Source of the DNA: an uncultured Methanosarcinales archaeon
GTDB lineage: Archaea > Nanobdellota > Nanobdellia > Woesearchaeales > ARS49
Reading direction: 5' to 3'
Length of the DNA stretch: 24,396 bases
Assembly: GCA_964472615.1 (NCBI GenBank)
Contig: CAYYLN010000002.1
Coordinates: 1 to 24,396, forward strand
In this document: in pieces, positions 887-16,879 of the stretch
Numbering within the stretch: position 1 is the first letter of the stretch
Layout of the letters: every line of letters starts with the position of its first letter
The notes under the pieces: generated by a model
The model's database searches: none
The model's input: the letters and a program-made list of their open reading frames with translations, nothing else
Told to the model about the DNA's origin: nothing
Translations under genes and position numbers: made by a program

Positions 887-1664
887 TTAAACTTTTACTT
901 GCTTCCACGCGCAGAACGCACACGTTTCAAGTGCCTTCGGTGGGTCCTTCCTATCCAGCACGAGCTTTGCTTCTTTCAGCAAGGTCATGGCACGCGCAGG
1001 ATTTGTCTTGAGCTCGATAACGGTCGTGTCAAACGGAATGCCTTTATGCAGTTCTCCTGGCTGCGGATAATAATAGACCAGGAACGCGCGCTTGTCTGTC
1101 GGGAAGTTATTCTTCTCAAGCAAGAACTTGTAAATATCCATCTGCACTTTATAGCTCTCATGTGTTTCTTTTGGCGCGCTTGCTCGCGTCTTATGGTCGA
1201 GCGGTGCGAACACGCCTTTCTTCAACTCAAGACAATCATCAAGCAATCCCCTGAGCAGCAATCCAGTCCCCGCATCTTCATATGTCGGAAACCCCTTGCG
1301 CGGAAACCACTGGCTTCAGCCTGTTGGAGGAAGCGCGGGGTTTCCGAACATGCTCAAGAACCACTTGCCATTTGGCAGCACATTGCTTATTATTCACGCC
1401 ACTTGCTTTAGCAAGTGGTTCTTGACACTTGAGCGTCTTTGGCCGAGGAAACGCCAGCTTTCCTGGCACCTTTCCCTTCCACAACGATGGCATCTCCCCT
1501 TTCTCGCGAAACGCATCACAATATTTCTTCAGCACCGAATCAAGCTCAATCGCAATACTCGCCATCGGCCCCGCAGGCCTGCCGATACCTTTCACCATCT
1601 TCATCCAGAAACAGCGAGGGCGTGCACGGGGGAGATGGGGGGTGGAGGGGGTTACGTGGGTCGT
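887..1664 (-). pseudogene. PD-(D/E)XK (RecB/Cas4-like) nuclease, ~210 aa, interrupted by a 145-bp insertion
   Basis: N-half (PRCFWMKMVKGIGRP...PRPKTLK, 1664-1428) and C-half (YEDAGTGLLLRGLLDDCLE...LDHKT...QMDIY...CAFC, 1282-887) join in frame when 1282..1426 is removed. D...DxK, QxxxY and terminal CxxC match this family. The start codon is unclear (ACG at 1664 where ATG is expected). Confidence 0.8.
1282..1426 (+). mobile_element. 145-bp non-autonomous IS200/IS605-type hairpin element (MITE/PATE-like), copy 1
   Basis: 143/145 identical to 8934..9078. Preceded by TTCAT (1277-1281), ends TTGAC, no target duplication. Subterminal hairpins GGC-TTCA-GCC and CCACTTGC-TTTA-GCAAGTGG. The boundary is ambiguous by 1 nt (1283..1427 gives the same empty site). 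Confidence 0.8.
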
Positions 1665-6657: not shown

Positions 6658-7995
6658 ATGCGCACGGCGATGTTCCTCACACTGATCCTGCTCCTCAGCA
6701 CAACTGCGTCTGCCTTCTCGACGACGAGCATCGTGCAGGGCACTGAGCCGGTCGTGTACGGCGACATTGTCGCATTCCTCACGCTTGAGGACTTTATCGA
6801 TCAAGACTTGAACAGCGACGGCGACCAGGCAGACCGCGTCCTCCAGTATTATGACACCCGCACTGAGAAAGTCACGAACACCGGCAAAGAAGCACGGCAG
6901 CCAGCCCTCTTCGGCAAGATTCTTGCCTTTACCGATGACACGCGCATCCTCCGGCTTTACACTATTGACGACAACAAAGTCATCGAGACAAACGTGCGGG
7001 GCGCATCGCCCTCGCTGTATGCGAAAACCGTCGCGCTCACGACTGCTGAAGAGGACATCGGCATCGACCTCACTGGCGATGAAGACACGCGTGACACCGT
7101 GATCCGGCAGTATGACACGGGCAGTGAGGTCGCTACCAACACCAACGCCGTCGGCGAAAACCCGGTCTTACTCGACGATTTCCTCATCTTCACGACACGC
7201 GAGGACGCCCTCGAGGCAGACCTCAACAATGACGGCGACCGTGACGACACCATCATCCGCGCCATGGATATCGACACCAACCAGATCGTGAACACCCGCG
7301 TCACCGGCACGAATCCTGTCGGCTACAAACACGAGACCATCATCATCACCGACGACAAGAAGTTCTGGACCCTCAACATCCCGAACAGCGAGAAACAACC
7401 GACCGGTGTCTCCGGCAATGATCCGTCGCTCTATCAGGACATGCTCGTCTACGAACGCGATGGCACGCTGATGCTCTATCGTCTCAGCACCGGCGTCGAG
7501 AAATCCCTCGGCATCATGGGCAAGTATCCTGCGCTCTTCGACCATCCCCTTGGCTTTGTGGCCCACAACAAGACCATCGCGGTCCCCAAAGGAGAGGATC
7601 CGGACAATGACTATGTTCCTGATTTCGCAGACAACTGCCCAGACCAGGCGAACGAAAACCAAGCAGATGCAGACAAGGACGGCCTTGGCGACGTATGTGA
7701 TGACACGCCTCTTCCTGAAGAAAAGAAGCCCGAACCTGTCGCTCCACAGGCGACTGCACACGTCACCGAGCCGCCCATCGAGCCCGTGTTCACGACGCAA
7801 GCCGAGCCAGAAACACCTCCTGCGCCAGTTGAACGCAAAGCCATCCCTGACACACTCGCCTTGCAGAAAGAAAAGGACGACCGCGAGCCCACGTACTGGT
7901 TCCTCATCGCGGTCGGGCTTATGGTCATCGGCGTCCTGCTGTATTTCTTCATGCCGCGCTGGCTCCACAAACGCAGAAAAAGCTTTGGGTTTTAA
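6658..7995 (+). CDS. Cell-surface protein (445 aa): signal peptide, three DxNxDGD Ca-binding repeats, thrombospondin type-3-like repeat, Pro/Glu/Thr linker, C-terminal TM anchor
   Basis: MRTAMFLTLILLLSTTASA; DLNSDGDQADRVLQYYD / DLTGDEDTRDTVIRQYD / DLNNDGDRDDTIIRAMD; DPDNDYVPDFADNCPDQANENQADADKDGLGDVCD; WFLIAVGLMVIGVLLYFFM followed by HKRRK. Confidence 0.85.
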   Translation: MRTAMFLTLILLLSTTASAFSTTSIVQGTEPVVYGDIVAFLTLEDFIDQDLNSDGDQADRVLQYYDTRTEKVTNTGKEARQPALFGKILAFTDDTRILRLYTIDDNKVIETNVRGASPSLYAKTVALTTAEEDIGIDLTGDEDTRDTVIRQYDTGSEVATNTNAVGENPVLLDDFLIFTTREDALEADLNNDGDRDDTIIRAMDIDTNQIVNTRVTGTNPVGYKHETIIITDDKKFWTLNIPNSEKQPTGVSGNDPSLYQDMLVYERDGTLMLYRLSTGVEKSLGIMGKYPALFDHPLGFVAHNKTIAVPKGEDPDNDYVPDFADNCPDQANENQADADKDGLGDVCDDTPLPEEKKPEPVAPQATAHVTEPPIEPVFTTQAEPETPPAPVERKAIPDTLALQKEKDDREPTYWFLIAVGLMVIGVLLYFFMPRWLHKRRKSFGF

Positions 7996-8933
7996 CGGGC
8001 GCACAAATACGCATGCAGTATTCGGAGACCATCCTCGAGCGATGTGTGCGGCTTCCAGCCCAAGAGCTTCTCTGCCTTGCTCACGTCCGCATACGTCTGT
8101 GAGACATCGCCCTCTCGCCGCGGCTGGGGATTTCTGATAGCATTCTTACCCACGATTTTTTCAAGCGTCTCAATGAATACGTTGAGCTCCACCGGGCTTG
8201 AGTTACCAAGATTGATGATCTCAAACCGCAGATCAGCGTCCGTAGCAGCAAGCACTCCTTCCACGATGTCGTCGATGAACGTGTAATCCCTGCGGCTCGC
8301 GCCATCGCCGTACACCTCAATCGGTTCGCTACGCATAATGCTCCGCATGAATTTGTACGGCGCCATGTCCGGCCGGCCGCGAGGACCATACACGGTGAAG
8401 AACCGCAAGCACGTCGCAGGCAAACCGAATTTTGCATAGGTCCAACACCAGAGTTCTCCCAAGCGCTTTGTCACACCATAGGGGCTGATTTGCGTGTCCG
8501 CAGGGTCAGTCTCGCGGAATGGAACTTCAGCGCGTTCACCATAGACTGAAGAGCTCGAAGCAAAGATGAAATTCTTGACGTTCGACTTCTGGGCAAGATC
8601 AAGCAGAATGGCGGTTCCCGTGACATTCCCATCATAATAGAGCTTGGGATTCTTGAGCGAAGGACGCACTCCTGCGCGCGCAGCAAGATGGATGACTTTG
8701 TCCGGTTGTTCTTTCGTGAAGGTGCATTGCATCCCGGCTTCATGCGTAATATCCGCCTCGCAGAGATCAAACGACCTATGGCCTACTATTCCTGCAATGT
8801 TGTCACGCTTGATGCGAGGATCATAATAGTCATTGAAGTTGTCGACCCCGACAACGCAATCGCCGCGCTTCAGCAACGCCTCACAGACGTGGCTGCCGAT
8901 GAATCCCGCAGCACCAGTCACGAGGTATTTCAT
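7992..8933 (-). CDS. NAD-dependent NDP-sugar epimerase/dehydratase (UDP-glucuronate 4-epimerase/WcaG-like SDR)
   Basis: VTGAAGFIGSH, HLAARAGVRPS, ASSSSVYG, YGVTK, LRFFTVYGPRGRPDMA, RDYTFIDDIVEG. Confidence 0.93.
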   Translation of the reverse strand: MKYLVTGAAGFIGSHVCEALLKRGDCVVGVDNFNDYYDPRIKRDNIAGIVGHRSFDLCEADITHEAGMQCTFTKEQPDKVIHLAARAGVRPSLKNPKLYYDGNVTGTAILLDLAQKSNVKNFIFASSSSVYGERAEVPFRETDPADTQISPYGVTKRLGELWCWTYAKFGLPATCLRFFTVYGPRGRPDMAPYKFMRSIMRSEPIEVYGDGASRRDYTFIDDIVEGVLAATDADLRFEIINLGNSSPVELNVFIETLEKIVGKNAIRNPQPRREGDVSQTYADVSKAEKLLGWKPHTSLEDGLRILHAYLCAR

Positions 8934-9078
8934 GTGTCGGAAACCCCTTGCGCGGAAACCACTGGCTTCAGCCTGTTGGAGGAAGCGCGGGGTTTCCGAA
9001 CATGCTCAAGAACCACTTGCCATTTGGCAGCACATTGCTTATTATTCATGCCACTTGCTTTAGCAAGTGGTTCTTGAC
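8934..9078 (+). mobile_element. 145-bp non-autonomous IS200/IS605-type hairpin element, copy 2
   Basis: Differs from 1282..1426 only at the first base and at 9049 (T vs C). Preceded by TTCAT (8929-8933, includes the epimerase start codon), ends TTGAC. Confidence 0.8.
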
Positions 9079-9100
9079 ACATGCGCAAGAATATCTGATT

Positions 9101-9109: not shown

Positions 9110-9227
9110 ATGCGCCATCGCTACGGAAGCTTTATAAACTTCCTGCGGATTTCGCCGAGTAACTTTTGGGGCAGCGCCAACTGCAGTCGGCTGGTCCCAA
9201 AATGCTTACATTTTGGGGTGATTAACC

Positions 9228-9449
9228 TTGGAATCAAGACCATTAGATGCGCTCAATCGCGCTCGGGATAAGAAAGTCATGGTGGAGCTGAAGAACGGCA
9301 AGCAGTTCATCGGCTTGCTCCGCGCATTCGACATCCACATCAATTGCGTGCTCGATGACACTGAAGAACGCGTGGAAGGCAACGTGACGAGAAAGCTCGG
9401 CACCACATTCCTCCGCGGAGACATGATCGTCCTCATCTCACCGCAGTAA
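9228..9449 (+). CDS. lsm: Sm-like (Lsm/SmAP1) RNA-binding protein (73 aa)
   Basis: RPLDAL...VELKNG...GLLRAFDIHINCVL (Sm1) and TFLRGDMIVLISP (Sm2). TTG start after GGGGTGA. Adjacent to rpL37e as is usual in archaea. Confidence 0.95.
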   Translation: MESRPLDALNRARDKKVMVELKNGKQFIGLLRAFDIHINCVLDDTEERVEGNVTRKLGTTFLRGDMIVLISPQ

Positions 9450-9514: not shown

Positions 9515-9676
9515 TTGAAAGGAACCTATTCGATGGGCAAGAGGAGCCGCGGCAGGTCGCACATCATGTGCAGACGCTGCGGCAGGCATAGTTACAATGC
9601 CGCGAAAAAGGTATGCGCGAGCTGCGGCTTCGGCAAGTCTGCCAAGCTGCGCAGCTACAAGTGGCAGACGTTCTAG
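9515..9676 (+). CDS. rpl37e: 50S ribosomal protein L37e (53 aa; not in the ORF track)
   Basis: Translated by hand: (TTG)[52 protein letters not shown]. CxxC...CxxC zinc finger, AAGGT upstream. Confidence 0.95.
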
Positions 9677-9972
9677 ATGTCGAAAACTGCTCTTGACGTA
9701 CCCTGCGGACTTTAGTCCGCCAGAAAGGACGAGCAGTTTTCGAGCATGACTTGACCAACGCTGCTGCGTTGTCATCTCGACAAGCAAAGCTTGTCGACGT
9801 CTCGCCAATCATTAGATTGGCGATGAACTTGAATAACTTTGTTATTCAAGTAACTTGAGAAACGCGGTTTCTCAAGTTCGTCGGAAATCAGCGGATTTCC
9901 GAGACTCAACAACCACGAGCAAATTTTGATGGCGTGTAGTCACGCCACTCGCTTTAGCGAGTGGTTGTTGAC
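9677..9972 (+). mobile_element. 296-bp composite hairpin element related to the 145-bp element, with an internal array of six hairpins
   Basis: Left module TGTCGAAAAC...GCGGAC-TTTA-GTCCGC...GTTTTCGAGCATG; right module TCAACAACCAC...CCACTCGC-TTTA-GCGAGTGGTTGTTGAC. Ends covary with the 145-bp copies. ATGTC occurs at 9677 and 9973. Confidence 0.6.
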
Positions 9973-10184
9973 ATGTCAAAAAGAATGCCTTGTTGTTCCT
10001 CACAATTGCCATTGCACTGGGCTTGCACATTCTCGCTCACCTCTGGCAGGTGTACGGACCAGAACAAGCACGCCTTTAATGGGGTGTTGGCCATAACGCA
10101 GTGCAAGCTTTGCATGCACTCTTCATCTGGTACGAGGCCAAGTAATTCTGCGCTACCTATATATAATAGCCAATTATCCATCAT
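9954..10184 (-). CDS. Possible small Cys-containing protein; last codons contributed by the 296-bp element
   Basis: 76-codon ORF, start uncertain (10184 or 10115). Removing 9677..9972 gives ...ILFDI* with a TAG overlapping the rpL37e stop. Confidence 0.35.
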   Translation of the reverse strand: MMDNWLLYIGSAELLGLVPDEECMQSLHCVMANTPLKACLFWSVHLPEVSENVQAQCNGNCEEQQGILFDMSTTTR

Positions 10185-10194
10185 TTAACTTTTC

Positions 10195-10278
10195 GCGGCT
10201 GTGCCGGAGTGGCCAAACGGGGCAGGCTTAGGACCTGCTGGCTTAGTGCCTTCCAAGGTTCGAATCCTTGCGGCCGCA
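10195..10278 (+). tRNA. trnL: tRNA-Leu (anticodon TAG), CCA not encoded
   Basis: Acceptor GCGGCTG/CGGCCGC, D-loop AGTGGCCAAA, anticodon arm GCAGG-CTTAGGA-CCTGC, long variable arm, T arm CAAGG-TTCGAAT-CCTTG. TATATATAA at ~10158-10166. Confidence 0.97.
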
Positions 10279-10334
10279 TGAGCTTAGCAAATGCGACGCA
10301 AGGCCAATCAACGAGTGTAGCGAAGTTGACGCTG

Positions 10335-10348
10335 CCTTGCGGCCGCAT
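10335..10348 (+). repeat. 14-bp direct repeat of the tRNA-Leu 3' end (CCTTGCGGCCGCAT)
   Basis: Identical to 10266..10279, 69 bp downstream. Confidence 0.75.
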
Positions 10349-14270: not shown

Positions 14271-14355
14271 GACCACTCCATTCATGACTCCTCCCGAGTG
14301 AGCAATAAATCTTTTAATACTTCCTGTCAGCGAGTGCATAAAAGAGGTTTGTTTG

Positions 14356-16179
14356 ATGAAGAGCATTATCACCTTGTTTGTCATACTCATTCTTTCCTTG
14401 TCTTTAGTCACTGCAATCGAGATCAGCAAATCAGTCATCAGTCAAATAAAACCAGTCAGCACCAAGATTGTGCCAAAACTCATCCCACTCCAGACTTGTG
14501 CGCGTGACGGACAACGCGCAGAAGATTATGGCGGGCGTTGTTGCGAAGGACTCAGCCAAGTGCGTGGCACGTGCTATCCTGGCCCAGACTGCGCCATCAC
14601 AGGACAACGCGCAGTAGACTTTCCGGAAGGATGCTGCGAAGACCTCGTTGCCAACCCCCAAGGAACCTGTGAATGGCGTTGCGCACGCCAAGGAGAAAGC
14701 TCCTACGGCTCAATCACGTGCTGCCAAGGGCTGTATCGCGACCCCAATCACATCTGCAGATCCTGCGCACCAGAAAACCAACGAGCAGCAGACTACGGAA
14801 ACATTTGCTGTGCTGGACTTACGAATCAAGGAGGCATTTGCACCAGACAACAACGTTGTGCTGGTGCTGGTTTGAATGCGGCAGTGTATGGTGGTGGGCG
14901 ATGTTGTGAGGGCTTAGTGTTGGTGGGTGGTGTGTGTAATGTTCCTCAAGAGCCCCCTGCAGAACGTTGTGCTGGTGCTGGTTTGAATGCGGCAGTGTAT
15001 GGTGGTGGGCGATGTTGTGAGGGCTTAGTGTTGGTGGGTGGTGTGTGTAATGTTCCTCAAGAGCCCCCTGCAGAACGTTGTGCTGGTGCTGGTCTGAGCG
15101 CGGTGGTGTATGGTGACGGACGATGCTGTGAAGGCCTGGTATTAGTTGGCGGCATTTGCAATGTTCCACGTGAAGAAGAACAATGCGTAGCTGAGGGTGA
15201 AGCACGAGGGTTCTGGGACATTATATTTGGACGACAGTGCTGTTCAGGTTTAGAACTCAGAGAAGGGGTTTGTCGTCGACCAGGCGAAGAGCGTTGTGCT
15301 GGTGCTGGTCTGAGCGCGGCAGTGTATGGTGACGGACGATGCTGTGAAGGCCTGGTATTAGTTGGTGGTCTCTGTAATGTTCCTCGTGGTGAAGAGCGCT
15401 GTGCTGGTGCTGGATTACGCGCAGACCTTTCTGGCGGTCGCTGTTGTGAGGGCTTGATTTTGCAAGGCGGTTTGTGTAATGTTCCTCGTGGTGAAGAACG
15501 CTGTGCAGGACCTGGCCTTCGCGCTGATGTGTATGGTGACGGACGATGCTGCGAAGGCCTTGTGCTCGTTGGTGGTCTTTGTAATGTCCCTCGCGGCGAA
15601 ATTCCACCAGCAGAAGAAGTCCCACCTGAAGAAATTCCTCCTGCAGCATGTGATGCCTGTGGTGAAATCGGAGGCCTCAGAACAGAAATAACTGAAATCA
15701 CGAGCACCATTGCAAATCTTCAACGCCAACTCAACATTTTGCTTTCCTTGCGATGCGCAGGCCCTGGCCTCAAGCCAGACCCGTACACTGGCCGCTGCTG
15801 CCAAGGACTCATCCTCATCAAGGGCATCTGCAATGTCCCGCCTGCAAAAGCACCTGATACGCAATGCGCAGGCGAGGGCCTGCGAGCAGACATGTATGAG
15901 GGAACGTGTTGCGAAAACCTCATAGAAGTCGGAGGCATTTGCCGCAAGCCAACCAAGCCAGAATGCGCAGGACCAGGACTCAAAGCAACAGAACGAGGCA
16001 AGCGCTGCTGCCTTGGGCTTGTCCTTCGAGGAGACACGTGCGTGCTCCCGCCTTCACCTGCAGACTACTTGGGCCAATGCGCAACCGAAGGCCTCCGGGC
16101 AGACATGTACGGCGAACGCTGTTGCGGAGACCTTGTTGAAATCCAAGGCATTTGCCGTGCACTACCCCTCTTGGGGTGA
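14356..16179 (+). CDS. Secreted Cys-rich repeat protein (607 aa, 15 C-x12..17-CC-x9..10-C modules plus a CxxC/coiled-coil segment)
   Basis: Signal MKSIITLFVILILSLSLVTA; module consensus CAGxGLxAxxYGxGRCCEGLxLxGGxC. ATG 14356 preferred over TTG 14353; AGAGGT upstream. Confidence 0.85.
   Translation: MKSIITLFVILILSLSLVTAIEISKSVISQIKPVSTKIVPKLIPLQTCARDGQRAEDYGGRCCEGLSQVRGTCYPGPDCAITGQRAVDFPEGCCEDLVANPQGTCEWRCARQGESSYGSITCCQGLYRDPNHICRSCAPENQRAADYGNICCAGLTNQGGICTRQQRCAGAGLNAAVYGGGRCCEGLVLVGGVCNVPQEPPAERCAGAGLNAAVYGGGRCCEGLVLVGGVCNVPQEPPAERCAGAGLSAVVYGDGRCCEGLVLVGGICNVPREEEQCVAEGEARGFWDIIFGRQCCSGLELREGVCRRPGEERCAGAGLSAAVYGDGRCCEGLVLVGGLCNVPRGEERCAGAGLRADLSGGRCCEGLILQGGLCNVPRGEERCAGPGLRADVYGDGRCCEGLVLVGGLCNVPRGEIPPAEEVPPEEIPPAACDACGEIGGLRTEITEITSTIANLQRQLNILLSLRCAGPGLKPDPYTGRCCQGLILIKGICNVPPAKAPDTQCAGEGLRADMYEGTCCENLIEVGGICRKPTKPECAGPGLKATERGKRCCLGLVLRGDTCVLPPSPADYLGQCATEGLRADMYGERCCGDLVEIQGICRALPLLG
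14852..15093 (+). repeat. Perfect intragenic tandem repeat, 111-bp unit (37 aa), ~2.2 copies
   Basis: Unit starts AACGTTGTGCTGGTGCTGGT at 14852, 14963 and 15074; units 1 and 2 are identical by inspection. More diverged copies continue to ~15600. Confidence 0.9.
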
Positions 16180-16234: not shown

Positions 16235-16879
16235 ATGCCATTTGAAGCAAAAAACTATGACTCATTGTTGGGATTGCAAGGATTTTCTGACCAATTACTG
16301 AAGAATCACTTTACGCTCTATCAAGGCTATGTGACGAACACAAACAAGCTTGCCGATGCTCTTGCCGCGATGCTCAAAGAAGGCAAGCAGGCAACCCCTG
16401 AATTTGCAGAGCTCAAGCGACGCTTTGGCTGGGAATTCAACGGCATGCGGCTGCACGAGCTCTACTTTGGCAACCTGTCGCCGACCAGCAGGTCGGCGAG
16501 CATGCTCGGAAATCAGCAGATTTCCGACATCGCCAAGGGAGACAAGGCAATGCCTGAATCGCTGAAGAAGCAACTCGCCAAGGACTTTGGCAGCGTCGAA
16601 AACTGGGAAAAGGATATGAAAGCCATCTGCGCCATGCGCGGCATCGGTTGGGCAGTCCTGTATTACGACATCGGTAACAAGCGTCTCATCAATGTCTGGA
16701 TCAATGAGCACGATGTCGGCCACCTGACCACATGCGCGCCCATCCTGGTCATCGACGTCTTCGAACACGCGTTCATGATCGACTACGGCATCAAGCGCGC
16801 GGAGTACATCGAGGCACTGTGGAAAGTCCTCAATTGGGAAGAAGCAGAACGACGGCTGAAGCTCGTCGGGTTCAAGTAA
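16235..16879 (+). CDS. sod: Fe/Mn superoxide dismutase (214 aa)
   Basis: Metal ligands in NHFTLYQGYV, EFNGMRLHELYF and DVFEHAFMIDYG. Confidence 0.93.
   Translation: MPFEAKNYDSLLGLQGFSDQLLKNHFTLYQGYVTNTNKLADALAAMLKEGKQATPEFAELKRRFGWEFNGMRLHELYFGNLSPTSRSASMLGNQQISDIAKGDKAMPESLKKQLAKDFGSVENWEKDMKAICAMRGIGWAVLYYDIGNKRLINVWINEHDVGHLTTCAPILVIDVFEHAFMIDYGIKRAEYIEALWKVLNWEEAERRLKLVGFK

What the first reader, a model, noticed from the sequence alone, without database searches (positions are those of the whole stretch)
9677..9972. 296-bp relative of the element carrying an array of six back-to-back, sequence-distinct hairpins
Seen: ends mirror the 145-bp element with three compensatory pairs: TGTCG(G/A)AAAC..GTTT(C/T)CGA, CCACT(T/C)GC-TTTA-GC(A/G)AGTGG and TCAA(G/C)AACCAC..GTGGTT(C/G)TTGA. 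Between them, separated by only 1-4 nt: 9746-9775 (imperfect), TCGACAAGC-AAA-GCTTGTCGA (9777-9797), TCGCCAATC-ATTA-GATTGGCGA (9802-9823), CTTGAATAAC-TTT-GTTATTCAAG (9828-9850), AACTTGAGAAAC-GCG-GTTTCTCAAGTT (9852-9878), TCGGAAATC-AGCG-GATTTCCGA (9881-9902). Units are 21-30 nt with shared termini (TCG..CGA or CTTGA..TCAAG) and unrelated cores. Inference: an array built by sequential addition of palindromic units (REP/BIME-like, plausibly by an HUH enzyme), a structured ncRNA, or a protein-binding/decoy platform. I recognise no named element with this layout.
Basis: partly seen in the sequence, partly recalled or inferred. Interest (0 to 1): 0.8.

Follow-up and report, generated by a model that had tools for sequence, protein, structure and literature searches.

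The report
Hairpin-packed miniature transposon in DPANN archaeon
The 297-bp hairpin array is one copy of a small, transposase-less mobile element with IS200/IS605-type hairpin ends, and three ~54-nt two-hairpin palindromic units have piled up inside it; this is selfish DNA of a known general kind, in a new and unusually modular archaeal form.

Summary
Window 9677-9973 is a 297-nt run of adjacent hairpins (fold z = -12 on both strands), related at both ends to two 146-bp copies at 1282-1427 and 8934-9079.

It matches no Rfam family. It belongs to a multi-copy family: 14 copies in the window, a genome MAG and three metagenomes. The family layout is a left module, a GCATGC linker and a right module.

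Several features match IS200/IS605 transposon ends:
- Both ends carry 8-bp hairpins with TTTA (TTYA at the left end) loops.
- The right hairpin differs from a Helicobacter IS605-like end by one compensated pair.
- The right hairpin sits 9 nt from the element end.
- There are no target duplications.
- The 4 nt left of each copy covary with the 4 nt before the left hairpin, following the IS608 guide/cleavage rule (10 of 11; permutation P = 0.006).

The array is three ~54-nt two-hairpin units in alternating orientation, inserted in the linker. Relatives carry none or one such ~54-nt insert (two extra hairpins). A similar 54-nt unit sits in frame inside the window's superoxide dismutase gene and is patchily present among orthologues.

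No matching transposase was found.

Best reading: a non-autonomous IS200/IS605-type (PATE-like) element carrying nested REP/BIME-like units. It is a new variant of a known kind.

The parts
9677..9973 (+). Whole non-autonomous element (copy 3, 297 nt): ATG + left module + hairpin array + right module + CA
   Evidence: LE and RE profile matches (E 2e-13 and 9e-17)
9673..9676 (+). Left flank tetranucleotide CTAG, the presumed target / left cleavage site; overlaps the TAG stop of the L37e gene (9533-9676)
   Evidence: across the family the last flank base pairs with the last base before the left hairpin (UA7 GC2 CG1 other1)
9680..9743 (+). Left module: 13-bp outer stem TCGAAAACTGCTC / GAGCAGTTTTCGA enclosing the subterminal hairpin
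   Evidence: I2, 100% complementary; helix 2 is 100% paired with 3 covarying pairs
9699..9702 (+). TACC, the 4 nt 5' of the left hairpin foot (candidate guide sequence G_L)
   Evidence: rule taken from IS608 (PMC3201880)
9703..9723 (+). Left subterminal imperfect palindrome CTGCGGAC-TTTA-GTCCG(C)CAG (IP_L-like, one bulged C)
   Evidence: helix 3; pair 34-47 is CG6/UG5, so the wobble exists on the + strand only
9746..9797 (+). Array unit U1 (degenerate B-A unit): imperfect hairpin 9746-9775 plus TCGACAAGC-AAA-GCTTGTCGA 9777-9797
9799..9851 (-). Array unit U2 (same unit type, opposite orientation): GTC, TCGCCAATC-ATTA-GATTGGCGA (9802-9823), TG, (A)ACTTGAATAAC-TTT-GTTATTCAAGT (9827-9851)
   Evidence: (68% identical to the reverse complement of U3; score 44 against 12.6 +/- 5.7 for shuffles); shares the TCGCCAATC hairpin + TGAACTTGA with L123 1973-2000
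9852..9905 (+). Array unit U3: AACTTGAGAAAC-GCG-GTTTCTCAAGTT (9852-9878), CG, TCGGAAATC-AGCG-GATTTCCGA (9881-9902), GAC
   Evidence: same framework as L133 3268-3320
9906..9973 (+). Right module: outer stem TCAACAACCAC (9906-9916) / GTGGTTGTTGA (9961-9971), perfect hairpin CCACTCGC-TTTA-GCGAGTGG (9945-9964, IP_R-like), then 9 nt TTGTTGACA to the element end
   Evidence: compare the H. pylori IS605-like right end CCCCTTGC-TTTA-GCAAGGGG + 9 nt
1282..1427 (+). Copy 1 of the basic 146-bp element, inserted inside a PDDEXK_1 gene that is now a pseudogene
8934..9079 (+). Copy 2 of the basic 146-bp element (97% identical to copy 1); abuts the ATG of the divergent epimerase gene 7992-8933
16476..16529 (.). 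54-nt two-hairpin mini-element (TG, TCGCCGACC-AGCA-GGTCGGCGA, GCATGC, TCGGAAATC-AGCA-GATTTCCGA, CA), in frame within the Fe/Mn superoxide dismutase gene

Best explanation
Window 9677-9973 is a non-autonomous transposable element of the IS200/IS605 type. It is a 'palindrome-associated' element with no transposase gene, in a DPANN (Woesearchaeota-like) archaeon.

Basic form and proposed movement:
- The basic form is 146 bp: a left module, a GCATGC linker and a right module.
- Each module is a long stem enclosing (left) or overlapping (right) an 8-bp subterminal hairpin with a TTTA/TTYA loop.
- Inferred: it moves as single-stranded DNA, processed by a Y1 (HUH) transposase supplied in trans.
- Under this model the top strand is cut 3' of a flank tetranucleotide (mostly TCAT). 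That site is read by base pairing with the 4 nt in front of the left hairpin.
- The second cut falls about 9 nt 3' of the right hairpin.
- The element would then be re-inserted without target duplication.

The hairpin array:
- It is cargo acquired later.
- It consists of three ~54-nt two-hairpin palindromic units, each a TCG..CGA hairpin plus a CTTGA..TCAAG hairpin.
- The units sit in alternating orientation in what was the GCATGC linker.
- They are most likely there through repeated insertion or inverted duplication of a small secondary mobile unit that targets these elements. This would parallel REPs clustering into BIMEs, or SMR-A repeats invading PATEs in Haloquadratum.

Shown versus inferred:
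- Shown: the family, its modular anatomy, hairpin covariation, flank/guide covariation, absence of target duplications, insertion into genes, and patchy presence.
- Inferred: the enzyme, the single-strand mechanism, and the way the array grew.
For: 1. Multi-copy family.
- There are 3 copies in the window.
- There are 11 more in one genome MAG and three metagenomes, each with different flanks.
- Copies 1 and 2 are 97% identical.

2. Ends match bona fide IS200/IS605 ends.
- The archaeal right end is CCACTTGC-TTTA-GCAAGTGG plus 9 nt.
- The H. pylori IS605-like right end (an element with tnpA and tnpB) is CCCCTTGC-TTTA-GCAAGGGG plus 9 nt. The two hairpins differ by one compensated pair.
- The left hairpins also have 8-bp stems and TTTA loops.
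- IS608 geometry from PMC3201880: the left cleavage site lies 19 nt 5' of the left hairpin, and the right site lies 10 nt 3' of the right hairpin.

3. Guide/target covariation. Pairs are written as guide / left flank:
- GAAA/TCAT in four copies (a further two TCAT copies have GACA)
- AAAA/TTAT
- GAAC/TCAG
- TACC/CTAG
- TACG/TAAC
- Position 4 is Watson-Crick in 10 of 11 copies, using three pair types. Permutation P = 0.006.
- The same position-by-position rule fits IS608, the H. pylori element and an unrelated Y1 IS with six insertion sites.

4. No target-site duplication at any copy. The left flank is conserved and the right flank is random.

5. Strand specificity. The left hairpin has a T.G pair on the + strand in 5 of 11 copies.

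6. Link to Y1 enzymes.
- The same hairpin (CCACTnGC-TTTA-GCn'AGTGG) flanks Pfam Y1_Tnp genes in Acidobacteriota.
- A Y1_Tnp gene exists in a close relative of the window organism.

7. Mobility.
- Copy 1 interrupts a PDDEXK_1 gene. Removing 1282-1427 rejoins the reading frame.
- The syntenic relative L133 has no element after L37e.
- The 54-nt unit in SOD is present in 3 orthologues and absent from closer ones. It is 90-93% identical between hosts, while the host genes are 72-79% identical.

4. Array is built of units.
- The linker region is 6 nt in 10 copies and 60 and 61 nt in two others (L125 carries exactly a 54-nt insert). It is 162 nt in this copy.
- 9799-9905 is an inverted pair of units.
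- Five homologous units are 92% paired, with 7 doubly changed pairs. None of 500 shuffles reached that.
Against: - No Y1 transposase gene flanked by these TTTA-loop ends was found in about 165 kb of related archaeal sequence.
- The one Y1 gene found in the lineage (L144) has a different end hairpin.
- The right-end guide/cleavage pairing does not fit the IS608 rule cleanly, and the right boundary is uncertain by 1 nt (TTGAC|A or TTGACA|).
- One of 11 copies (L127) breaks the left-end rule, and the sample is small.
- The element has a 10-nt imperfect terminal inverted repeat (TGTCGRAAAC / GTTSTTGACA), which classical IS200/IS605 elements lack.
- The 54-nt mini-units lack TTTA-loop hairpins. Their mobilisation by the same enzyme is unproven.
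- No nucleotide-exact empty site was obtained for copy 3 itself.
Confidence: 0.7

Rival explanations
1. A functional structured RNA. The array would be transcribed as the 3' UTR of the LSm-L37e operon, or as an sRNA. It would act as an exonuclease barrier that stabilises the mRNA, or as a platform for an RNA-binding protein.
For: - The element starts directly after the L37e stop codon, with no obvious oligo-T terminator before it, so it is probably transcribed.
- The predicted fold is extremely stable.
- The stems covary.
- The left hairpin has U.G pairs on the + strand only.
- REP elements are known to stabilise upstream mRNA (established knowledge; abstract of PMC3733652).
Against: - No Rfam match even at E <= 10.
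- The array stems are perfectly Watson-Crick, and the reverse strand folds equally well.
- Copies lie in unrelated contexts and orientations relative to genes, and inside coding sequences.
- The syntenic relative lacks it.
- Any RNA effect would be a by-product of insertion, not the reason the sequence exists.
Confidence: 0.1
2. A conventional MITE moved by a DDE transposase that recognises the terminal inverted repeats TGTCGRAAAC ... GTTSTTGACA (TG...CA ends). On this view the internal hairpins are irrelevant to movement.
For: - The termini read TG...CA.
- They form an 8-of-10 imperfect inverted repeat.
- The mini-units also carry TGTCG...CGACA ends.
Against: - No target-site duplication in 14 copies or at the SOD and PDDEXK insertions.
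- The flanks are asymmetric: the left is conserved and the right is random.
- The left flank covaries with an internal tetranucleotide, which a DDE mechanism does not predict.
- The hairpins closely match IS605 ends.
Confidence: 0.08
3. A relic or free-standing guide-RNA (omega-RNA-like) gene of a TnpB/IscB nuclease. The right module would be the scaffold, and the flanking DNA to its right would be the guide.
For: - Omega RNAs derive from IS200/IS605 right ends (abstract of PMC8612924; PMC4615843).
- The right end pairs with an upstream segment over 11-15 bp.
Against: - No TnpB-like ORF in the window or related loci.
- The only Rfam hit to HEARO is noise (13.6 bits against a gathering score of 83).
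- The right module is only about 70 nt.
- This reading would not explain the array.
Confidence: 0.07
4. A double-stranded DNA platform of palindromic operator sites for a dimeric DNA-binding protein, for example one centred on CGAGCATGCTCG.
For: Each unit is a perfect palindrome in duplex DNA, and the linker CGAGCATGCTCG is a conserved 12-bp palindrome.
Against: - The cores differ between units.
- Spacing is variable.
- Units occur inside coding sequences and at unrelated loci.
- No regulator gene is linked to them.
Confidence: 0.03

Closest known systems
PATEs (palindrome-associated transposable elements) and terminal-only IS605-type remnants of Haloquadratum walsbyi (PMC3119063)
   Same: - Too short to encode a transposase.
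- Near-terminal palindromes related to IS605-type ends.
- No target duplications.
- Multi-copy, with strain-specific insertions.
- A 52-bp terminal-only version appears to be mobile.
- Frequently invaded by other small repeats.
   Different: - The host lineage differs (DPANN rather than haloarchaea), and there is no sequence relationship.
- Each end hairpin here is wrapped in, or overlaps, a second long stem, giving TG...CA inverted termini.
- The internal cargo here is an ordered array of two-hairpin units.
IS605/IS608 (IS200/IS605 family) ends and Y1 TnpA peel-and-paste transposition
   Same: - Subterminal 8-bp hairpins with TTTA loops; the right hairpin is 18 of 20 nt identical to an H. pylori IS605-like right end.
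- The right hairpin lies 9-10 nt from the element end.
- The target tetranucleotide on the left pairs with the 4 nt before the left hairpin.
- No duplications.
   Different: - No tnpA or tnpB in the element, and no cognate transposase was found.
- The left hairpin lies 26 nt from the end, against 19 in IS608.
- Outer stems and terminal inverted repeats are present.
- The right-end guide rule was not reproduced.
REP/BIME (REPIN) sequences and their RAYT (TnpA-REP) Y1 enzymes in bacteria
   Same: - Short palindromic units clustered in alternating orientation with short linkers.
- The same hairpin sequence type (CCACTnGC-TTTA-GCn'AGTGG) flanks Y1_Tnp genes in Acidobacteriota loci L069 and L049.
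   Different: - REPs are extragenic, identical within a genome, and tagged by GTAG or CGTC (PMC3733652). These units have divergent cores and TCG/CGA or CTTGA/TCAAG feet, and they occur in genes.
- No RAYT gene is known for this lineage.
SMR-A small mobile repeats of Haloquadratum (PMC3119063)
   Same: - Very small repeats with inverted termini.
- No target duplication.
- An unknown mobiliser.
- A strong preference for inserting into PATEs and IS605-type elements.
   Different: SMR-A are about 110 bp and highly conserved. The units here are about 54 nt, consist of two hairpins, and have diverged cores.
Rickettsia palindromic elements (RPE) and pneumococcal BOX elements (from my own knowledge, not checked here)
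   Same: - RPEs insert in frame into protein-coding genes and are translated, like the 54-nt unit in SOD.
- BOX elements have an A-B(n)-C layout with a variable number of internal modules.
   Different: Both are bacterial, unrelated in sequence, and have no IS200/IS605-type end hairpins.

Membership tests
IS200/IS605-derived non-autonomous element (PATE) | Subterminal (imperfect) palindromes at both ends rather than simple terminal repeats | tested here: met
   - Left: CTGCGGAC-TTTA-GTCCG(C)CAG, 26 nt from the left end.
- Right: CCACTCGC-TTTA-GCGAGTGG, 9 nt from the right end.
- Both covary across 11-12 copies.
IS200/IS605-derived non-autonomous element (PATE) | No target-site duplication; insertion 3' of a short specific sequence on one side only | tested here: met
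   - No flanking direct repeats in 14 copies.
- Left flank is T-C/T-A-N, with TCAT in 7 of 13 copies.
- Right flank is random.
IS200/IS605-derived non-autonomous element (PATE) | Left cleavage/target tetranucleotide recognised by pairing with the 4 nt 5' of the left hairpin foot | tested here: met
   Position 4 is Watson-Crick in 10 of 11 copies (UA7, GC2, CG1). Permutation P = 0.006. The pattern is the same as in IS608 and two other Y1 elements.
IS200/IS605-derived non-autonomous element (PATE) | Right cleavage site paired with the 4 nt 5' of the right hairpin foot | tested here: inconclusive
   The guide candidate is CACG. Terminal TGAC fits positions 3-4 only, and GACA does not fit. The right boundary is ambiguous by 1 nt.
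IS200/IS605-derived non-autonomous element (PATE) | Sequence similarity of the end hairpins to a transposase-bearing family member | tested here: met
   18 of 20 nt identical (one compensated pair) to the right-end hairpin of an H. pylori element with tnpA and tnpB. The 9-nt spacing is the same.
IS200/IS605-derived non-autonomous element (PATE) | A cognate Y1 (HUH) TnpA in the same genome able to act in trans | tested here: not met
   - None in the window or in about 165 kb of related loci with these ends.
- A Y1_Tnp fragment exists in relative L144, but with a different hairpin.
- The whole genome could not be searched.
REP/BIME with RAYT | Conserved GTAG (or CGTC) tag at the hairpin foot; near-identical extragenic units; RAYT gene flanked by REPs | tested here: not met
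   - No GTAG tag.
- CGTC occurs once, as a linker (9798-9801).
- The units have divergent cores and occur inside genes.
- No RAYT gene was found in the archaeal loci. Bacterial loci with the same hairpin do show the RAYT arrangement.
REP/BIME with RAYT | Clusters of palindromic units in alternating orientation separated by short linkers | tested here: met
   Units U1, U2 and U3 run forward, reverse, forward. 9799-9905 is a 107-nt imperfect palindrome.
DDE-type MITE | Terminal inverted repeats plus target-site duplication of fixed length | tested here: not met
   An imperfect 10-nt inverted repeat is present, but there is no duplication at any of 14 copies or at the two in-gene insertions.
Known RNA families (Rfam 15), including IS605/TnpB- and IscB-associated RNAs | Covariance-model match at or near the gathering score | tested here: not met
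   Only the neighbouring tRNA-Leu passes. The best hits on the elements score 13-24 bits against gathering scores of 51-90. The bacterial loci are also negative.

The most novel reading that the evidence does not exclude
The ~54-nt two-hairpin units may be a self-sufficient class of ultra-small mobile DNA in DPANN archaea.

On this reading, an HUH-type (or unknown) enzyme recognises only the hairpin feet and can insert and precisely excise the units. This would include in-frame insertion and excision within essential-type genes such as SOD.

The units would preferentially target the linker of the larger elements and so build BIME-like arrays. That would amount to an archaeal REP/REPIN-type system, with units smaller than any characterised transposon substrate.
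Probability: 0.3. Interest if true: 0.7.

Novelty: new variant of a known kind. Interest (0 to 1): 0.45.

Why it matters
- It places an IS200/IS605-type, hairpin-guided mobile element family in a Woesearchaeota-like DPANN archaeon, a group with tiny genomes in which mobile DNA is little described.
- The family gives a clean natural data set for the guide/target base-pairing code of single-strand transposition.
- It shows how small palindromic units can pile up into ordered arrays inside another element.
- It shows that a 54-nt unit can live in frame inside a conserved enzyme gene.
- For annotation, it warns that such hairpin arrays should be masked as repeats, not called as ncRNA genes or as short ORFs.

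Tried and rejected
- Rfam at gathering and E-value thresholds on the window and on 16 bacterial loci found only tRNAs.
- All-against-all clustering of ORFs in the 118 bacterial loci that share the hairpin gave no recurrent transposase cluster. Direct tblastn with H. pylori TnpA was needed to find the Y1 genes.
Look-ups for LSm, L37e and the window SOD found nothing on record, so no strain-level empty site for copy 3 was obtained.
- A viral-contig scan with the linker pattern gave one suggestive hit (L142); the rest look like chance.
- A literature search for the hairpin sequence string found nothing.
- I chased the Y1_Tnp fragment at the end of L144 to full-length relatives. They form a different IS, with GAGCC...GCGA-loop hairpins, and are not the partner of this family.
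- Reading the 146-bp copy as a 48-codon ORF (ATG...TGA) was rejected, because copy 3 has an early stop.
- An archaeal BHB intron reading of the SOD insert was rejected: there is no bulge-helix-bulge, and the 51-nt and 54-nt variants both keep the reading frame.
- I could not derive a consistent nested-insertion history for every linker in the array.
Full report
**Observation**

The region is as described.
- Perfect inverted repeats lie at 9777-9797, 9802-9823, 9827-9851, 9852-9878 and 9881-9902.
- An imperfect one lies at 9746-9775.
- A 13-bp stem lies at 9680-9692/9731-9743.
- The hairpin CCACTCGC-TTTA-GCGAGTGG lies at 9945-9964.
- The 297-nt stretch 9677-9973 folds at -142.7 kcal/mol, against -81 +/- 5 for shuffles (z = -12.4). 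The reverse strand folds equally well at -142.2.
- Two 146-bp relatives, 97% identical to each other, lie at 1282-1427 and 8934-9079.
- Rfam finds only the neighbouring tRNA-Leu.

**Context and organism**

- The element begins directly after the stop codon of ribosomal protein L37e (9533-9676). L37e follows an LSm gene (9228-9449).
- tRNA-Leu (10195-10278) and an S-layer gene follow.
- The closest named homologues of neighbouring proteins are from Candidatus Woesearchaeota: 71-75% identity for the HhH-GPD glycosylase and 61% for SOD. The host is therefore a DPANN-type archaeon.
- The one genome-collection hit (L044) is labelled Methanosarcinales in its record.

**A multi-copy, modular family**

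- An exact-pattern scan of metagenomes for the right end returned 10 loci. The genome scan returned one archaeal locus, L044.
- With the window, that makes 14 copies, all with different flanks.
- All start (A/G)TGTCGRAAA and end GGTTNTTGACA.
- They split into three parts:
  - a left module, in which the outer stem TCGGAAAC../..GTTTCCGA encloses an 8-bp hairpin with a TTYA loop;
  - a middle;
  - a right module, in which the outer stem TCAASAACCAC../..GTGGTTSTTGA overlaps the perfect hairpin CCACTnGC-TTTA-GCn'AGTGG, followed by 9 nt.
- The middle is the 6-nt linker GCATGC (or ACATGC) in ten copies. It is 60 nt in L125, 61 nt in L127 and 162 nt in window copy 3.
- L128 has a left module collapsed to a bare 9-bp hairpin.
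- Covariation supports the stems:
  - Left module: 94% of cells paired, 7 pairs with changes on both sides, none of 500 shuffles as high.
  - Right outer stem: 94% paired, with the S position GC in 8, CG in 3 and unpaired in 1.

**Why the ends are IS200/IS605-type**

- I recalled that IS608 has a CCCCTAGC-TTTA-GCTATGGGG hairpin. I tested this against plasmids, and it hits Helicobacter at 94-100% identity.
- In plasmid NC_017373, three copies of an element with tnpA (IS200/IS605 family) and tnpB define their own ends:
  - left: about 19 nt, then CTCCGTCC-TTTA-GGACGGAG;
  - right: CCCCTTGC-TTTA-GCAAGGGG, then 9 nt (TGGTTTCAC), then the end.
- The archaeal right end is CCACTTGC-TTTA-GCAAGTGG, then 9 nt (TTCTTGACA), then the end. 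The hairpin differs by a single compensated base pair.
- PMC3201880 gives the IS608 rule:
  - Cleavage occurs 3' of TTAC, 19 nt 5' of the left hairpin.
  - Cleavage occurs at TCAA, 10 nt 3' of the right hairpin.
  - Each cleavage site is read by the 4 nt 5' of the hairpin foot.
- I applied this position by position to the archaeal left ends. Pairs are written as guide / left flank:
  - GAAA/TCAT (copies 1 and 2, L121, L122)
  - GACA/TCAT (L120, L126)
  - AAAA/TTAT (L119)
  - GAAC/TCAG (L125)
  - TACC/CTAG (copy 3)
  - TACG/TAAC (L123)
  - The single exception is L127 (GAAC/TCAT).
- Position 4 is Watson-Crick in 10 of 11 copies, with three pair types. Permutation P = 0.006.
- The same pattern (T-G or T-A, C-A or T-A, A-A or A-C, then a Watson-Crick pair) holds for:
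  - IS608 (GAAT/TCAA, AAAG/TTAC);
  - the H. pylori element (AAAA/TTAT, GAAG/TCAC);
  - an unrelated Y1 insertion sequence seen at six sites (AACC/TTAG, GACG/TCAC).
- There is no target duplication at any copy. The left flank is conserved and the right flank is random.
- The left hairpin has a T.G pair on the + strand in 5 of 11 copies, which would be a mismatch on the other strand. This fits top-strand-specific processing.

**Link to HUH enzymes**

- The loose hairpin pattern hit more than 118 loci in bacterial genomes. These are mostly repeat families in Pyrinomonadaceae/Acidobacteriota, Armatimonadota and Bacteroidota.
- In two of these loci (L069, L049) the hairpins flank a 145-162-aa Pfam Y1_Tnp gene (E about 1e-25). 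This is the REP/RAYT arrangement.
- At the variable stem position all four Watson-Crick pairs occur across lineages: A-T, G-C, T-A and C-G.
- A Y1_Tnp fragment lies at the contig end of L144, a close relative of the window organism. Its end hairpin is different, and so are those of its full-length relatives.
- The cognate transposase of this family was therefore not found. This is the main gap.

**Evidence of mobility**

- Copy 1 lies inside a PDDEXK_1 gene.
  - The orthologue in L144 matches window 1655-1488 (N-terminal part) and 1201-887 (C-terminal part).
  - Removing exactly 1282-1427 joins ...GCC AAA GAC GCT CAA G|AT GAA GAT GCG... in a frame that continues the homology.
  - The gene carries a further frameshift and is a pseudogene.
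- The syntenic relative L133 (GCA_975468935.1) has the same S8e...LSm-L37e...tRNA-Leu-S-layer...SOD-RNR order. It has a plain 64-nt spacer and a small membrane ORF after L37e, and no element.
- Profile searches find no diverged copies in that genome's 37 kb, or elsewhere in 165 kb of related loci. The family is therefore lineage-restricted and recently active.
- Six of 13 full copies abut the ATG of a divergent gene. This follows from the TCAT target (the complement of ATGA) combined with selection against intragenic insertions in a compact genome.

**The hairpin array**

- The 162-nt middle of copy 3 resolves into three units of about 52-54 nt.
- Positions 9799-9905 form a 107-nt imperfect palindrome:
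  - U2 (9799-9851): GTC, A hairpin TCGCCAATC, TG, B hairpin AACTTGAATAAC.
  - U3 (9852-9905): the same unit type in the opposite orientation: B hairpin AACTTGAGAAAC, CG, A hairpin TCGGAAATC, GAC.
  - U2 is 68% identical to the reverse complement of U3 (score 44, against 12.6 +/- 5.7 for shuffles). The differences are confined to the hairpin cores and loops.
- U1 (9746-9797) is a third, partly degenerate B-A unit.
- Homologous units occur at L133 3268-3320, downstream of tRNA-Leu. They also occur in a three-hairpin element at L123 1939-2030.
- Across the five units, 92% of cells pair and 7 pairs changed on both sides. None of 500 shuffles reached that.
- The cores are therefore not unrelated. 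There are two hairpin classes that diverge quickly while each hairpin stays perfectly complementary.
- A sister type of unit (TG, hairpin, GCATGC, hairpin, CA; 54 nt) occurs in three settings:
  - It accounts exactly for the extra 54 nt in the linker of L125.
  - It stands alone upstream of a tRNA in L123.
  - It lies in frame inside the window's Fe/Mn SOD gene at 16476-16529.
- The SOD insert (18 codons) has a patchy distribution:
  - It is present in the window, in P0002 (51 nt, with a compensatory A>G/T>C change in one hairpin) and in the distant P0011.
  - It is absent from closer orthologues (empty sites GGCAATCTT|GCCAAGGGC and GGCAATCTC|ATCAAGGGT).
  - It is 90-93% identical between hosts whose SOD genes are 72-79% identical.
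  - This pattern needs repeated site-specific gain, or precise loss.

**Mechanism**

- Shown: the anatomy, the covariation, the flank code, the lack of duplications, insertion into genes, and variable unit number.
- Inferred: single-strand peel-and-paste transposition by a Y1 HUH enzyme acting in trans on the top strand.
- Inferred: growth of the array by repeated insertion, or inverted duplication, of ~54-nt units into the linker.
- Perfect complementarity of each hairpin despite core divergence could reflect selection for hairpin formation, or intrastrand templated correction. I cannot tell which.
- The element is probably transcribed with L37e, so a REP-like effect on mRNA stability is possible as a side effect.

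**Comparison and novelty**

- The closest described things are the PATEs, terminal-only IS605 remnants and SMR-A repeats of Haloquadratum walsbyi (PMC3119063). That paper reports:
  - a 52-bp mobile remnant;
  - small repeats without target duplications, and with an unknown mobiliser, that preferentially invade PATEs.
- REP/BIME clusters share the alternating-orientation layout and, in bacteria, the very same hairpin type next to Y1 genes. The GTAG/CGTC tag, the extragenic restriction and a RAYT gene are not met here.
- I therefore file this as a new variant of a known kind: a DPANN family of IS200/IS605-type non-autonomous elements with double-stem modules, and a nested array of two-hairpin units.

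**Limits**

- The sample is small: 11-14 copies.
- The right-end guide rule was not reproduced, and the right boundary is uncertain by 1 nt.
- No nucleotide-exact empty site was obtained for copy 3.
- No cognate transposase was found.
- The mobiliser of the 54-nt units is unknown.

Noticed in passing
window 16476-16529 (inside ORF 16235-16879): A 54-nt two-hairpin mini-element is inserted in frame (peptide SPTSRSASMLGNQQISDI) between the N and C domains of the Fe/Mn superoxide dismutase. It is present in 3 orthologues and absent from closer ones. The insert is 90-93% identical between hosts, while the host genes are 72-79% identical.
   Followed up: yes
window 887-1655 (minus strand) and 1546-2298: Copy 1 of the element splits a PDDEXK_1 nuclease gene, which is now a pseudogene with a further frameshift. 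The adjacent HhH-GPD glycosylase has lost its normal stop and runs about 35 residues longer than its homologues.
   Followed up: partly
window 8931-8936; L120 3729-3734, L121, L122, L126, L127 left junctions: Six of 13 full elements sit exactly against the ATG of a divergently oriented intact gene (TTCAT|ATGTCG). This leaves no native 5' leader, and how those genes are expressed is unexplained. A TATA-like AATAATAAG lies on the opposite strand inside the right module.
   Followed up: partly
L001-L118 (bacterial genome loci), e.g. L069 2650-3330, L049 197-700: The same hairpin, CCACTnGC-TTTA-GCn'AGTGG, is a high-copy REP-like repeat in Pyrinomonadaceae/Acidobacteriota, Armatimonadota (Fervidibacter) and Bacteroidota. 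All four Watson-Crick pairs occur at position n across lineages. In L069 and L049 the hairpins flank a Y1_Tnp (RAYT-like) gene.
   Followed up: partly
window 9974-9986 versus L069 2691-2703: The 13 nt right of copy 3 (TGTCAAAAAGAAT) are identical to the sequence a few nt after the REP hairpin in the Pyrinomonadaceae locus L069. They also resemble the element's own left start, ATGTCGAAAAC. This could be chance in an A-rich stretch or a preferred site.
   Followed up: no
L144 7786-8099; L148-L153: An IS200-like Y1 transposase gene is cut by the contig end in a close relative of the window organism. Related full copies at six sites insert after TTAG and end ...GGTAGTTCAC, with GAGCC..GCGA-loop hairpins. 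Their guide/cleavage tetranucleotides follow the IS608 rule.
   Followed up: yes
window 10266-10348; L133 3105-3210: The last 13 nt of tRNA-Leu (CCTTGCGGCCGCA) are repeated about 70 nt downstream, with an inverted partial copy in between. This is conserved in the syntenic relative, whose tRNA-Leu also appears to carry an intron. It could be an old integration site, a processing structure, or part of a split-tRNA arrangement.
   Followed up: no
window 14353-16179 (+): A 608-aa ORF is built of 102-111-nt tandem and dispersed repeats (two copies are 100% identical) with recurring Cys-Cys-encoding motifs. It has only a weak DUF7259 hit.
   Followed up: no
window 9160-9225: A perfect hairpin CCCAAAATG-CTTA-CATTTTGGG and a repeated TTTTGGGG lie just upstream of the TTG start of the LSm gene. 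This may be a leader or regulatory structure.
   Followed up: no
L142 5190-5245 (IMG/VR contig UViG_3300002145_000153): A viral contig carries TCGGAAATT-CGG-AATTTCCGA GCATGC TCGGAAATT... inside an open frame (repeated peptide ARKFGI). It resembles the mini-element architecture.
   Followed up: no
window 9974-10150: The small membrane-protein gene that follows L37e in the relative L133 (85 aa) is represented here only by a frame with an internal stop and no clear start. Its putative ATG overlaps the last base of the element (GAC ATG TCA).
   Followed up: partly
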